Assembly: GCF_003018255.1 (NCBI RefSeq)
Contig: NZ_CP027440.1
Origin: Escherichia coli
GTDB lineage: Bacteria; Pseudomonadota; Gammaproteobacteria; Enterobacterales; Enterobacteriaceae
DNA length: 64,000 nt
Direction: 5' to 3' (one strand)
Below, one piece after another: positions 7,101 through 10,100 of the stretch. Position 1 is the first letter of the stretch. Each line of letters starts with the position of its first letter. A program made the position numbers.

Positions 7101-10100
7101 GTTTATTCACTCTATACGCCATCAGAGCAGTTTTATCCGCCTGGCGCACCAATCCCGTGGCCATCAGATACCGTTCCGTCTGGCTATGCCCTGATGCAGG
7201 GGCAGACTTTTGACAAATCTGCATACCCGAAACTTGCAGCCGCTTATCCGTCAGGCGTGATCCCTGATATGCGTGGCTGGACGATTAAGGGCAAACCTGC
7301 CAGTGGTCGGGCCGTATTGTCTCAGGAACAGGACGGCATTAAATCGCACACCCACAGCGCCAGCGCATCCAGTACGGAATTGGGGACGAAAACCACATCG
7401 TCGTTTGATTACGGCACTAAATCCACGAATAACACCGGGGCGCACACGCACAGTGTGAGCGGTACAGCCGCAAGTGCCGGAAACCATACTCATAGTGTCA
7501 CAGGCGCATCAGCAGTCAGCCAGTGGTCACAAAATGGGTCAGTACATAAGGTAGTGTCTGCGGCCAGTGTGAATACAAGTGCTGCAGGAGCGCACACTCA
7601 TAGTGTCAGCGGCACAGCTGCATCTGCAGGTGCTCACGCACATACTGTCGGTATTGGTGCTCATACGCACTCTGTTGCGATTGGCTCACATGGACACACC
7701 ATCACCGTTAACGCTGCTGGTAACGCGGAAAACACCGTCAAAAACATCGCATTTAACTACATTGTGAGGCTTGCATAATGGCATTCAGAATGAGTGAACA
7801 ACCACGGACCATAAAAATTTATAATCTGCTGGCCGGAACTAATGAATTTATTGGTGAAGGTGACGCATATATTCCGCCTCATACAGGTCTGCCAGCAAAC
7901 AGTACCTATATTGCACCGCCAGATATTCCGGCTGGCTTCGTGGCTGTTTTCAACAGTGATGAGGCATCGTGGCATCTCGTTGAAGATCATCGGGGTAAAA
8001 CGGTTTATGACGTGGCTTCCGGCGACGCGTTATTTATTTCTGAACTCGGCTCATTACCGGAAAATGTCACCTGGTTATCCCCGGAAGGGGAGTTTCAGAA
8101 GTGGAACGGCACAGCCTGGGTGAAAGATGCAGAAGCAGAAAAACTATTCCGGATCCGGGAGGCGGAAGAAACAAAAAACAGCCTGATGCAGGCAGCGAAT
8201 GAGCATATTGCGCCACTTCAGGATGCTGTGGATCTGGAGATCGCAACGGAAGAAGAGGCGTCGTTGCTGGCAGCATGGAAGAAGTATCGGGTGTTGCTGA
8301 ACCGTGTTGATACATCAGTAGCACCGGATATTGAGTGGCCTGCTGTCCCTGTTATGGAGTAATCGTTTTGAGATACGCCGCATACACGTTGTATGCAATA
8401 ACGTGCTGCGGCTTGGTAAATTTTAGCTAGTTTCAGCAGGAGACATAAAAAACTTCAATATAAGATTAAGCATCACGTATTGCCAATCTGATTTTTGACT
8501 GATACCAATTGGGGCCTTCTGCAATTATTTCTTCCTCAACATGCATGATGGGATGCATTTCAATTTCAGAGTTTTTGACTTTTAGATCTAGTCCATATTT
8601 TTTTGAAATTTGTAAAACTTCATTTTTGAAATCCTTATCTGCGAAAGGTGAAATCCTTATTTCTTCCAACAGATTGTTAAGAGATACAGGGACTAGTTTT
8701 CCCTTTACAGGTGGAGTGTTAAAGGTATTCTCTTGAAAAATAGCTCTAAACTCTTTTTCGTATTCGAAAGATGGTCTCTTGTTAAAGAATACATCTGATT
8801 CTGGATTGTATTGTTTTATCCAGAAATTTTTGACGTATTTTACGTGTTTTAATTGTAGTTTGTTTAAATTATTATTTTCAAGTTGGCTTTGGAGGTTTTT
8901 TTTCTTTGATTTTATGACAACGCCTTTAGCGGGGTTTTTACAATACAGCTTCCACATAGCTTCAGATTCATGTTCGTTACAATGCCAGCAACTTATATAT
9001 GTCCTCTCGCTTATTTCCTTAAGTGTCTTTAAATTGAATGCCATGAAAGGATCTAAGTCCATGCCGGCACCATGAGTAGCGCATAGTTTTTCCTGTGTCT
9101 CAATGAATTTTTTATAGCCAGTATGTCCCCAAGCAAATTCACCTTCGAATGGATCTTCAAAATTTTTTGCTGAGCAAAAAAATAAAGCATTTTGTTCGAG
9201 TAACATAGAGAATTTCTCTATGTCAAGGTATCGCCATATATACTCAGTGTGCATGATAGCTCCTTGCAATATAACTATTTCTATCTGTTCATTTGTACTT
9301 AAAAAGGATTGAGTAGCCTGAACAGTTCTATCCGTAAATATACCAGATAGAAGAGTTGTACAATAACAAATCCTCCGTATAAGAACCAGCCATAATAGTC
9401 TGGTTCTTAAGGTTTTTTTTTGTTCGAGGGGGGGGGGCTACGATTCGTCCCCATATCGGCGATAAATTAGGCTTGTACCAACGCTTCTGTTTCTGTGAGT
9501 GAAATCTGATAGCGTTTTACTGCCTCAGCAAAGGCGTGCGCGGCATCTGCATTTGATACCATATATTCTTCAGTTACCCCTGTTTGAGAATGGAAAGTAA
9601 TATTTCCATAAATGCAAATAGGGATTTGGTAGTTGTCTTTAAAACGACGGTCTGGTGAGCCATTCTTATTCGTTTTCGCCCATGTATAACCATCTATGCG
9701 TGAGTCACTGGGAACACCTTCTTCCTCATGGAATCTTAGATATTCTGAACTAATTTGTAATTCGCGTAAATCAATCAGAGCGAATGCTCCATCAGCTCGT
9801 GGTATGACTGCAACTCCAGGATAAAGCAAAATATCGTCTCCATTTACATTTTCAAACCTCATCGCACGCCCTGTAAATTGAATGAGATCCGTTGAACTAA
9901 AATCAAAGGTAACTGGGTGACGATTAACAGACCGGGTTGCTAATGTTCTTTCAGCAAACTGGTCTGTAGCTTTATCTGCAGTAATATCCCATTTTTTGAC
10001 ACTCGATTTTAACATATCAAATGCATGGACCATCGCTGCATATGCGCGCTGTGAAGCATCACTGCTCTCGAATGTTATGGCTATTTTTGTGCTGTCTTCC

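What the first reader, a model, noticed from the sequence alone, without database searches (positions are those of the whole stretch)
9381..9437. Hairpin, T9 tract and G10 homopolymer in the intergenic region between the two - strand cargo genes
A 9-bp stem hairpin followed by T9 forms a terminator-like element on the + strand, although both flanking genes are on the - strand. It could stop antisense read-through coming from the stf-tfa late operon, or end a small + strand transcript. Six bases further on is a run of ten G (C10 on the coding strand of the downstream gene's promoter region). Tracts this long are rare in E. coli and prone to slipped-strand mispairing, so they could give phase-variable expression of the DUF2971-like gene or mark a recombination junction.
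Basis: seen in the sequence. Interest (0 to 1): 0.55.

Follow-up and report, generated by a model that had tools for sequence, protein, structure and literature searches.

The report
Decayed tRNA-Pro attachment-site scar
The hairpin, T-run and G-run are most likely the worn-down remains of a phage attachment site (the 3' half of the proline tRNA gene proL plus its terminator), trapped between two cargo genes of an E. coli prophage; they mark an old recombination seam, not a purpose-built genetic switch.

Summary
There is a 9-10 bp stem (9380-9389/9400-9409), T9 (9413-9421), GTTCGA and G10 (9428-9437), in the 212-bp gap between the DUF4236 gene (9467-10669, -) and the DUF2971 gene (8466-9254, -).

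In relatives, the DUF4236 stop codon is followed by a perfect 3' half of tRNA-Pro(GGG) proL and then the tRNA's intrinsic terminator. The window is collinear with this on the - strand.
- The hairpin is that terminator stem. It matches 33/36 bases of the copy behind intact proL in E. coli 51008369SK1.
- A9 is the A-run that follows the tRNA's CCA end.
- C10 has overwritten the T-arm.

An allelic series polarises this change: G4T4AAC, G5T4, G6T3, G7T2, G6TAAC, then G7-G10. G10 is the single longest allele among 121 E. coli genomes.

The U-run on the original strand is deleted, so termination is predicted lost there. A + strand terminator is predicted as a by-product of A-run growth.

Run lengths differ between isolates but follow SNP clades. 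The G-run lies in no detected promoter spacer or ORF. An IS1 sits inside the scar in one strain.

Verdict: an att-site scar with hypermutable runs. The recombination-junction reading is supported; phase variation is not. Ordinary, low interest.

The parts
9467..10669 (-). DUF4236-domain cargo gene (400 aa). In relatives its stop codon is always followed by the tRNA-Pro 3' fragment.
   Evidence: ORF; RefSeq annotation WP_039022691.1; 35 related loci; downstream sequences.
9422..9466 (-). Decayed remnant of the 3' half of tRNA-Pro(GGG) proL. On the - strand it reads TTTATCGCCGAT ATGGGG (anticodon-loop remnant, 9454-9449) ACGAATCGTAG C10 TCGAAC.
   Evidence: Collinear alignment with intact fragments. 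The fragment is 100% identical to annotated tRNA-Pro. The G4T4 allele resembles the tRNA 3' half (4/5000 shuffles score as well), whereas the window allele alone does not.
9428..9437 (+). G10 run (C10 on the - strand). It is the most expanded allele of a run that grew out of the T-arm remnant (CCCC).
   Evidence: Allelic series. The window is the only one of 121 E. coli genomes with total length 321.
9413..9421 (+). T9 run (A9 on the - strand). It derives from the A5 that follows the tRNA CCA end (CCAAAAATCC became ACAAAAAAACC), then grew from A7 to A9.
   Evidence: alleles T7, T8 and T9.
9380..9409 (-). Hairpin, the stem-loop of the element-borne proL terminator. Compared with the intact copy, the C at the top of the stem is now A.
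   Evidence: 33/36 identity of the A-run plus hairpin block to the copy directly behind intact proL in E. coli 51008369SK1. Folds.
9368..9379 (-). Post-terminator remnant (TACGGAGGATT). The U-run that should sit here is missing, an apparent deletion of about 15 nt. Homology to att regions ends here, which places the seam with the DUF2971 unit.
   Evidence: The DUF2971 homologue in L058 shares only the ORF, not this upstream region.
9337..9345 (-). Candidate extended -10 element, TGGTATATT, for the DUF2971 gene. This is an inference and has no good -35.
   Evidence: Read from the sequence. It was not reported by the two-hexamer scan.
8466..9254 (-). DUF2971-domain cargo gene (262 aa from the ATG at 9254, with an AAGGAG Shine-Dalgarno at 9260-9265). 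It is ART-like and a candidate single-gene antiphage protein.
   Evidence: PADLOC PDC-S31 hit at 3.5e-20. Literature: PMC12522546 and PMC11381338.

Best explanation
The 9368-9466 segment is a fossil attachment site. It is a decaying direct-repeat copy of the 3' half of the tRNA-Pro(GGG) gene proL (from the anticodon loop onward), together with the intrinsic terminator that proL-targeting elements carry behind it. It travels with the 3' end of the DUF4236 gene and marks the seam where the DUF2971 gene was joined. The pair was later moved, presumably by recombination between lambdoid prophages, into this icd-integrated prophage. The copy is no longer part of a tRNA and has eroded in four ways. 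(1) The T-arm and acceptor remnant shrank. (2) Its CCCC seed grew into C10 by slippage and by run-extending substitutions at the run boundary. (3) The A5 after the CCA end grew to A9. (4) The U-run after the hairpin was deleted. The predicted consequences are inferred, not shown. The hairpin probably no longer terminates DUF4236 transcripts, so read-through into DUF2971 is possible. Read on the + strand, hairpin plus T9 now resembles an intrinsic terminator, either as a by-product or as a weak exaptation. On this reading the G10 run has no regulatory role; it is simply the most mutable site in the region.
For: Homology. In about 25 IMG/VR loci, DUF4236 homologues (89-95% identity) are followed by ATGGGGTGTCGGGGGTCGGAGGTTCAAATCCTCTCGTGCCGACCA plus a hairpin-U7 terminator. 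These 47 nt are 100% identical to annotated tRNA-Pro, which is proL, between yejM and yejO. ARAGORN finds no complete tRNA there or in the window. MAFFT shows the window's - strand is collinear block by block.

Direct repeat at proL. In E. coli 51008369SK1 and HCM-28C-2 the order is yejM, intact tRNA-Pro, DinI-like, DUF4236, scar, DUF2971', tfa, stf. The intact tRNA is followed by AAAATCCCTTAAGAACCAGCCTATTATGGCTGGTTTTTTT, which matches 33/36 bases of the window's A-run plus hairpin and differs from the native E. coli proL terminator. The native displaced fragment sits at the far end next to yejO.

Polarity of decay. The G4T4AAC allele is significantly tRNA-like (4/5000 shuffles score as well). 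The G10 allele is not. The series is G4T4, G5T4, G6T3, G7T2, G6T, then G7-G10.

Dispensability. An IS1 is inserted inside the scar in HCM-28C-2. An independent decay of the fragment is seen in L036, L040 and L046.

Terminator scores, using the same script with controls. Native proL scores +18 and the intact element copy +35 on the tRNA strand and -14 on the opposite strand. The window scar scores -16 on the tRNA strand and +24 on the + strand; the T7 allele scores +11 on the strand equivalent to the window's + strand.

Run variation is specific and heritable. Across 9 genomes and 6.3 kb, only these two runs vary. Five other 7-8-mers are invariant. Lengths follow SNP clades.
Against: The window itself holds no tRNA and no proL att partner, because this prophage sits at icd. 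The att origin is therefore read entirely from relatives.

The window's own middle segment is no longer statistically tRNA-like.

The deeper history is unsettled. No intact tRNA-Pro lies within 8 kb upstream of DUF4236 in four IMG/VR loci. In two loci the DUF4236-plus-fragment unit sits directly after smpB-ssrA. Tandem integration, aberrant excision and integrase-module swapping therefore cannot be told apart.

The hairpin block (33/36) is much better preserved than the tRNA block. This could reflect selection on the hairpin, as a + strand terminator or an mRNA 3' stabiliser, rather than pure neutrality.

There are no expression data. The terminator formula was recalled from memory and was checked only against two positive-control terminators and the window background.
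Confidence: 0.8

Rival explanations
1. Selected + strand intrinsic terminator. The hairpin plus T9 exists to stop + strand transcription (read-through from the stf-tfa late operon or from an unknown + strand promoter) before it runs antisense into DUF4236.
For: The + strand scores d=+24, ranking 6th of 175 T-tail sites in the whole window, and only 6 sites reach 20. The score rises with T-run growth (T7 scores +11, T9 scores +24), while the intact ancestor-like copy scores -14 on that strand. The hairpin after tfa (8377-8412) lacks a U-run and scores -24, so nothing else is predicted to stop + strand transcripts before 9412. The hairpin block is better conserved than the neighbouring tRNA block.
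Against: The geometry is atypical: an AU-rich 10-bp stem, a 10-nt loop, and a U-run reached only through a 2-3-bp closing helix across an internal loop. It would shield DUF4236 but leave DUF2971 fully exposed to antisense transcription. From general knowledge, lambdoid late transcription is Q-antiterminated and reads through intrinsic terminators. T-run growth parallels G-run growth, which has no terminator role, so a mutational cause is sufficient. No + strand promoter was found between 8362 and 9380 apart from one weak 9/12 match.
Confidence: 0.25
2. Phase-variable switch. Slipped-strand changes in the C10/G10 run turn expression of the DUF2971 (ART-like, candidate defence) gene on and off.
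For: Run length differs (G7, G8, G9, G10) among sequences that are otherwise identical over 6.3 kb. About 3-4 length changes at this one site compare with about a dozen SNPs over 6.3 kb, so the run is highly mutable. The downstream gene is a candidate antiphage gene, a class for which variable expression would make sense.
Against: The run is 174 bp upstream of the ATG and about 85 bp upstream of the only plausible -10 element. It lies in no detected promoter spacer, and no ORF of at least 20 aa spans it. It arose by decay of a tRNA remnant. About 90 of 121 genomes carry an interrupted G4-G7 run instead. Near-clonal isolate pairs have identical lengths, and lengths follow SNP clades. The segment tolerates an IS1 insertion. 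The neighbouring segment length varies freely by -3 to +2 nt across alleles.
Confidence: 0.05
3. Sequencing or assembly artefact. The tract-length differences, and perhaps G10 itself, are homopolymer errors in long-read assemblies.
For: G/C homopolymers are error-prone in long-read data (general knowledge). One assembly (07-4299) also has a 1-bp deletion that splits DUF4236.
Against: Five other 7-8-nt runs in the same 6.3 kb are invariant in all 9 assemblies. The same alleles recur in independent assemblies and metagenome contigs: T9G8 in L015, L018 and 07-4299; G5T4 in L012, L017 and L066. Lengths agree with SNP clades. The interrupted alleles differ by substitutions, not only by length.
Confidence: 0.05
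4. The 3' end of a small + strand RNA (sRNA or antisense RNA) that overlaps the DUF2971 5' region.
For: A predicted terminator with no + strand gene upstream.
Against: There is no Rfam match at E<=1 in 8300-11200, and none in four allelic variants. There is no credible + strand promoter within 9200-9380. The only + strand ORF nearby is 30 aa and overlaps the DUF2971 start. The origin of the hairpin is fully explained otherwise.
Confidence: 0.04

Closest known systems
Direct repeats of tRNA-gene 3' ends that flank prophages and genomic islands (att sites in tRNA/tmRNA genes; Campbell-type integration; the Williams 2002 classification, recalled from memory)
   Same: The fragment starts in the anticodon loop and runs through the CCA end. 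In relatives it is identical to the host tRNA. In E. coli at proL it is a direct repeat of the intact tRNA's 3' end, with horizontally acquired genes in between. The element supplies its own terminator behind the restored tRNA.
   Different: In the window the copy is internal to a prophage integrated at a different site (icd). It has no partner repeat and is heavily eroded. No integrase was shown to use it. In some relatives the same unit lies next to ssrA.
Lambdoid 'morons': cargo genes with their own promoter and a downstream intrinsic terminator, often next to tail-fibre genes or att (Hendrix/Juhala concept, recalled from memory)
   Same: Two - strand cargo genes sit between tfa and attR. 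A stem-loop terminator lies directly behind the DUF4236 ORF in relatives (d=+29 to +35). The DUF2971 ORF occurs elsewhere with unrelated flanks.
   Different: Here the terminator is borrowed from a tRNA gene or att site, and it has lost its U-run on the gene's own strand (d=-16).
Intrinsic (Rho-independent) and bidirectional terminators
   Same: A stem-loop flanked by an A-run and a T-run. On the + strand U9 follows the structure, and the score is within the range of the window's best terminators.
   Different: The site is not bidirectional, because the U-run on the original strand is deleted. The stem is AU-rich with a 10-nt loop, and 3 nt lie between the main stem and the U-run. No transcript is known to end here.
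Contingency loci: phase-variable homopolymeric tracts (for example poly-G/C tracts in Neisseria, Haemophilus and Campylobacter genes, or in Bordetella fim promoters; recalled from memory)
   Same: A long G/C homopolymer near a gene for which variable expression could be useful, with length polymorphism among isolates.
   Different: The tract is not inside an ORF or a detected promoter spacer. It is a recent, lineage-specific outgrowth of decaying DNA. Changes are rare enough to follow SNP clades.

Membership tests
tRNA-gene attachment-site repeat (att scar) | Sequence identity to the 3' part of a tRNA gene, beginning in the anticodon or T loop and running to the 3' end | tested here: met
   Relatives are 47/47 identical to annotated tRNA-Pro proL. 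The window is linked through collinearity and the allelic series: the G4T4 allele gives 4/5000 shuffles, while the window allele alone is not significant.
tRNA-gene attachment-site repeat (att scar) | Occurs as a direct repeat of the intact tRNA's 3' end, bracketing acquired DNA | tested here: met
   Met in E. coli 51008369SK1 and HCM-28C-2: intact proL, then DinI-like, DUF4236 and the scar about 2.2 kb downstream in the same orientation. Not met in the window itself, which has no tRNA because the prophage sits at icd.
tRNA-gene attachment-site repeat (att scar) | A site-specific recombinase of the element uses the site | not testable with these tools
   A tyrosine recombinase lies 1.7 kb upstream of DUF4236 in L027, and an integrase lies at the far end of the proL prophage. 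No activity data exist, and no intact tRNA-Pro lies within 8 kb upstream in four loci.
Intrinsic terminator, + strand | A stable stem-loop immediately followed by a U-run | tested here: inconclusive
   ΔG is -13 to -14 kcal/mol (z=-4.0) and U9 is present. However, 3 nt (AGG) separate the main stem from the U-run unless a 2-3-bp closing helix forms. With that helix the score is d=+24, ranking 6th of 175 T-tail sites.
Intrinsic terminator, + strand | Transcripts end at the site | not testable with these tools
   No transcript data are available.
Intrinsic terminator, - strand (the original tRNA/DUF4236 orientation) | A stem-loop immediately followed by a U-run | tested here: not met
   The tail is UACGGAGGAUUUG and the best score is d=-16. 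The intact copy scores +35, L032 scores +29 and native proL scores +18.
Phase-variable homopolymeric tract (contingency locus) | The tract lies inside an ORF or between the -35 and -10 of the regulated promoter | tested here: not met
   No ORF of at least 20 aa spans 9413-9437. The tract is 30 nt past the DUF4236 stop and 174 nt before the DUF2971 ATG. No promoter-like pair brackets it.
Phase-variable homopolymeric tract (contingency locus) | High-frequency reversible length change within a lineage | tested here: inconclusive
   G7-G10 is seen among near-identical sequences. Lengths are shared within SNP clades and by near-clonal isolate pairs. Read-level heterogeneity could not be examined.
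Phase-variable homopolymeric tract (contingency locus) | Tract length controls expression of the neighbouring gene | not testable with these tools
   Needs reporter fusions or RNA-seq.
Any curated RNA family (Rfam 15) | A covariance-model match | tested here: not met
   No match at E<=1 in window 8300-11200. No relevant match in four allelic variants. Only a 12.6-bit partial T-arm hit in the intact fragment of L027.

The most novel reading that the evidence does not exclude
The scar has been exapted. Deletion of the U-run on the tRNA strand and growth of the A-run reversed the polarity of a tRNA terminator, so that it now shields the cargo genes from convergent late-operon transcription. The length of the adjacent C/G run tunes read-through or Rho loading between DUF4236 and the ART-like DUF2971 defence gene. 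That would amount to heritable, slipped-strand-variable expression of a prophage defence gene in E. coli.
Probability: 0.07. Interest if true: 0.55.

Novelty: new member of a known kind. Interest (0 to 1): 0.2.

Why it matters
It replaces a speculative regulatory reading with a concrete origin. A conspicuous hairpin, T-run and G-run in a prophage intergenic region turn out to be the eroded 3' half of tRNA-Pro plus its terminator, that is, an attachment-site fossil marking where cargo genes were stitched together. This matters in three modest ways. First, it documents a route by which cargo next to an att site (DUF4236, and an ART-like candidate defence gene) becomes internal phage cargo and then spreads to prophages at other sites (proL, icd, ssrA). 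Second, it provides a natural, polarised allelic series of homopolymer growth (G4T4 to G10, A5 to A9) in unconstrained DNA, including run-extending substitutions at the run boundary. Third, it is a caution for genome scans: long homopolymers and terminator-like hairpins next to att-proximal cargo can be decay products. None of this would surprise a specialist in phage genomics.

Tried and rejected
- Rfam searches of the region and of four allelic variants found nothing relevant.
- A small-ORF search across the runs found only a 21-aa - strand ORF in the hairpin (9328-9393) and a 30-aa + strand ORF over the DUF2971 start. Neither spans the runs.
- The two-hexamer promoter scan found no promoter bracketing the G-run and none on the + strand upstream of the hairpin.
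- I looked for separation of the two cargo genes within E. coli. They are always together in 120 genomes, so there is no mosaic information at that level. The break only appeared with protein-level relatives.
- No sequenced phage in the INPHARED collection carries the module.
- The genome-contig scan for the DUF4236/tRNA-fragment junction gave one hit, in a MAG labelled Hyphomonadaceae, which I did not examine.
- I hypothesised that DUF4236 is the last gene of a small proL-integrating islet with its own integrase. An integrase is present in L027, but no intact tRNA-Pro lies within 8 kb upstream in four loci. In two loci the unit follows smpB-ssrA. This is left unresolved, not adopted.
- A literature search for the terminator-score constants did not find the source. 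The formula is therefore used only comparatively, against control terminators.
- A literature search for proL prophage integration returned nothing specific to E. coli.
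Full report
**1. Observation**

The sequence is as described. On the + strand it reads TAAGAACCAG (9380-9389), a 10-nt loop, CTGGTTCTTA (9400-9409), AGG, T9 (9413-9421), GTTCGA and G10 (9428-9437). The hairpin folds at -13 to -14 kcal/mol as RNA, with z=-4.0 and 0 of 200 shuffles folding as well. G10 is the only G/C run of 9 or more in the window.

The element lies in the 212-bp gap between two - strand genes. One is the DUF4236 gene (9467-10669). The other is the DUF2971 gene (8466-9254). I place its start at the ATG at 9254 because an AAGGAG sits 5 nt upstream; RefSeq starts it at 9206.

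The window is 100% identical to E. coli LD91-1. The genes belong to a lambdoid prophage at icd with the order J, lom, stf, tfa, DUF2971(-), DUF4236(-), two hypothetical genes, DUF3800, icd'.

**2. Variation among isolates**

The intergenic region occurs in 121 of 5426 complete E. coli genomes. In alignments everything is invariant except the two runs and the bases between them. On the + strand the alleles are:
- T7 GTTCGA G4T4AAC, roughly 54 genomes, the largest group.
- T7-8 GTTCTA with G5T4AAC, G6T3AAC or G7T2AAC, about 20 genomes.
- T8-9 CGA G6TAAC, 14 genomes.
- T8-9 GTTCGA followed by an uninterrupted G7-G10, 31 genomes.

In the last group the total lengths indicate 1 T9G10 (the window), 11 T9G9, 1 T9G8, 11 T8G8 and 7 T8G7. 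I verified the composition in nine of these 31 genomes (window, A2, JCKP02, JNE23-011, 07-4299, AR_0077, 19M19/PEC131, QA1986, YA-1) and inferred the rest from length. Metagenome and IMG/VR contigs show the same alleles independently.

I then compared nine genomes over 6.3 kb.
- Only these two runs vary. Five other 7-8-nt runs, at 8598, 8896, 9176, 11527 and 11788, are constant.
- T8 is shared by four genomes.
- Two genomes that share five SNPs (AR_0077 and PEC131) share T8G8.
- Near-clonal isolate pairs have equal lengths.

The runs are therefore really polymorphic and far more mutable than ordinary sites. Their lengths are inherited and are not random per isolate.

**3. What the segment is**

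Protein-level relatives of DUF4236 in IMG/VR were decisive (35 loci). In about 25 of them the stop codon is followed by TTATCGCAAAT-ATGGGGTGTCGGGGGTCGGAGGTTCAAATCCTCTCGTGCCGACCA. Next come a short A-rich spacer and a hairpin with U7.

The 47 nt from ATGGGG to CCA are 100% identical to annotated tRNA-Pro in E. coli genomes. That tRNA is proL, between yejM and yejO. ARAGORN finds no complete tRNA in those loci or in the window, so this is a 3' fragment that begins in the anticodon loop. By my recollection of the tRNA att-site literature, that is the usual shape of an attachment-site repeat.

MAFFT aligns the window's - strand block by block with these loci and with proL itself:
- stop codon, then TTATCGC..ATATGGGG;
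- the tRNA 3' half, intact in relatives and scrambled in the window type;
- an A-run;
- the hairpin, AAGAACCAG...CTGGTT;
- a U-run, absent in the window type.

**4. The same scar at proL in E. coli**

In strains 51008369SK1 (G4T4 allele) and HCM-28C-2 the gene order is yejM, intact tRNA-Pro, DinI-like, DUF4236, scar, truncated DUF2971, tfa, stf.

The intact tRNA there is followed by AAAATCCCTTAAGAACCAGCCTATTATGGCTGGTTTTTTTATG.... The A-run plus hairpin block of the window matches it at 33 of 36 positions, including the TATTAT loop. The native E. coli proL terminator is different (AAAAAACCAACCCTTACGGTTGGTTTTTTT). The hairpin is therefore the terminator that the integrating element brings with its tRNA 3' half.

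The displaced native fragment (54 nt, 100% identical) lies at the far end of the inserted DNA, just before yejO. It sits beyond the prophage integrase and a further 3 kb of cargo. So the scar is an internal direct repeat of the att region, lying between DUF4236 and DUF2971.

Homology to att regions ends about 12 nt past the hairpin, near 9368. A DUF2971 homologue elsewhere (L058) shares only the ORF. This places the seam with the DUF2971 unit there.

**5. How the runs arose**

The G4T4AAC allele's middle segment reads ACGAATCGTAGGTTAAAACCCCTCGAAC on the - strand. It is significantly similar to the tRNA 3' half, aligning TCGGAGGTTCAAATCCTCTCG with TCGTAGGTT-AAAACCCCTCG (4 of 5000 shuffles score as well). 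The window's G10 allele alone is not. This polarises the series: G4T4AAC is closest to the tRNA, and G10 is the most derived state.

Within the GTTCTA group the alleles G5T4, G6T3 and G7T2 keep a constant total length. There the run grew by T-to-G substitutions at its boundary. In the window group the run has replaced the T-loop remnant altogether.

The A/T run has a parallel history. CCAAAAATCC behind the tRNA became ACAAAAAAACC (A7), then A8 and A9.

My inference, from general knowledge of slipped-strand and transient-misalignment mutagenesis, is mutational run growth in DNA that is no longer constrained. Two observations support the lack of constraint. The fragment has decayed independently in L036, L040 and L046. 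An IS1 is inserted inside the scar in HCM-28C-2.

**6. Terminator function**

I scored hairpin-plus-tail candidates with a d'Aubenton-Carafa-type discriminant. The formula is recalled from memory and I could not find its source, so I used it only comparatively.

| Site | Strand | d score |
|---|---|---|
| Native E. coli proL terminator | tRNA strand | +18 |
| L032 copy | tRNA strand | +29 |
| Intact element-borne copy (51008369SK1) | tRNA strand | +35 |
| Intact element-borne copy (51008369SK1) | opposite strand | -14 |
| Window scar | tRNA/DUF4236 strand | -16 |
| Window scar, T9 | + strand | +24 |
| T7 allele | strand equivalent to the window's + strand | +11 |

The window scar scores poorly on its original strand because the U-run is gone. 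Relative to all intact versions this looks like a deletion of about 15 nt.

In a whole-window scan the + strand site ranks 6th of 175 T-tail sites, and only six reach d>=20. Its geometry is atypical, however. The stem is AU-rich, the loop is 10 nt, and the U-run abuts the structure only if a 2-3-bp CC(U)/(A)GG closing helix forms.

The old terminator is thus predicted to be dead on its own strand, which would allow read-through from DUF4236 into DUF2971. A new terminator is predicted on the opposite strand. Whether the latter is used or selected cannot be decided here. The hairpin after tfa (8377-8412) lacks a U-run, so the site could be the first stop for non-antiterminated + strand transcription. 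It would protect only DUF4236, not DUF2971.

**7. Phase variation**

- The G-run lies 30 nt after the DUF4236 stop and 174 nt before the DUF2971 start.
- It is about 85 nt upstream of the only plausible -10 element (TGGTATATT, 9345-9337, - strand; my reading).
- It is outside any ORF of at least 20 aa.
- No promoter-like hexamer pair brackets it.

Add the recent decay origin, the predominance of interrupted short runs, inheritance along clades and tolerance of an IS1 insertion. I rate a regulatory switch as unlikely (about 5%). It is not excluded without expression data.

**8. Comparison with known systems**

The segment works like, and most likely is, an att-site repeat in a tRNA gene. Identity to the tRNA 3' half and the direct-repeat arrangement were both tested and met in relatives. 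Use by an integrase could not be tested.

It also fits the 'moron with terminator' pattern, with the unusual detail that the terminator is borrowed from a tRNA and has since lost its U-run. It fails the positional criterion for a contingency locus. It matches no Rfam family.

The cargo is of some interest. DUF2971 matches the PADLOC candidate system PDC-S31 at 3.5e-20. It is described as an ADP-ribosyltransferase-like, DarT-like family (PMC12522546). It includes the experimentally found lactococcal antiphage protein Aristaios (PMC11381338).

**9. Open points**

The deeper history is unresolved.
- L027 has a tyrosine recombinase 1.7 kb upstream of DUF4236.
- No intact tRNA-Pro lies within 8 kb upstream in four loci.
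- In L035 and L105 the order is smpB, ssrA, DUF4236, tRNA-Pro fragment, PRK09951-family gene, umuC.

The DUF4236-plus-fragment unit therefore sits att-proximally in elements at proL, at ssrA and, in the window, at icd. Tandem integration, aberrant excision and exchange of integrase modules all remain possible.

**10. Verdict**

The recombination-junction reading is supported and sharpened. The + strand terminator is a reasonable but untested prediction and probably a by-product. Phase variation is not supported. This is a new example of a well-known kind of feature. Interest 0.2.

Noticed in passing
L035 1155-3100; L105 1-3400: In two IMG/VR loci the order is smpB, ssrA (tmRNA), DUF4236, then a perfect tRNA-Pro 3' fragment plus terminator, then a PRK09951-family gene and umuC. 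A proL att fragment therefore sits next to the ssrA att site.
   Followed up: partly
L032 about 1290-1340; L069 downstream of intact tRNA-Pro: After the element-borne proL terminator there are three or so GGGGAA/GGGGTA motifs spaced about 11-12 nt apart (for example ACGGGGAAGCAACGGGGAATAATTGGGGAAAAACCCC). These may be recombinase arm-type sites. The window keeps only a remnant of the first one (ACGGAGGA, 9378-9371).
   Followed up: no
L068 3081-3890 (E. coli HCM-28C-2): An IS1A is inserted inside the scar at GGGGTTTTAAC, with a GGTTTTAAC duplication, between the hairpin/run region and the DUF4236 stop.
   Followed up: yes
L070 38065-39021 (E. coli 51008369SK1): A second, different DUF2971-domain gene (318 aa) lies next to the integrase at the other end of the proL prophage. 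Both ends of that prophage therefore carry DUF2971-family cargo. In the same strain the DUF2971 gene next to the scar is truncated to a 113-aa ORF and tfa is incomplete (L069 3881-4858).
   Followed up: no
window 9206 versus 9254: RefSeq starts the DUF2971 gene at 9206 (246 aa). An in-frame ATG at 9254 has a perfect AAGGAG 5 nt upstream (9260-9265), giving 262 aa. The PADLOC and L058 homology starts near 9248.
   Followed up: partly
window 10135 equivalent in L074 (isolate 07-4299): A 1-bp deletion splits DUF4236 into two ORFs in this assembly. It is either a real pseudogene or an assembly error.
   Followed up: no
window 8363-8416: About 54 bp after the tfa stop are conserved with tfa in thousands of E. 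coli prophages. They contain a GC-rich hairpin (8377-8412) without a U-run (d=-24).
   Followed up: partly
window 4150-4168 and 4826-4845 (+): Two compact GC-rich hairpins with T6 tails are the best-scoring + strand terminator candidates in the region (d=+31 and +43). By position they appear to flank the lom-like gene just upstream of stf.
   Followed up: no
window 6287-6860 equivalent in L077 (QA-1986 630): A dense patch of about 30 substitutions in stf in one otherwise identical prophage. This looks like a recombination tract in the tail-fibre gene.
   Followed up: no
window 9467-9500 / alignment: The last codons and 3' UTR of DUF4236 (GGCCTAA(C/T)TTATCGC...AT) align loosely with the D-arm and anticodon-stem part of proL (AGCCTGGTAGCGCACCGTC). 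A longer, older tRNA-like stretch may overlap the gene end. This could also be chance.
   Followed up: no
window 12238-12972 (+): The DUF3800 gene near attR gives a weak PADLOC hit (PDC-M04A, 6.5e-5, N-terminal 37 aa only).
   Followed up: no
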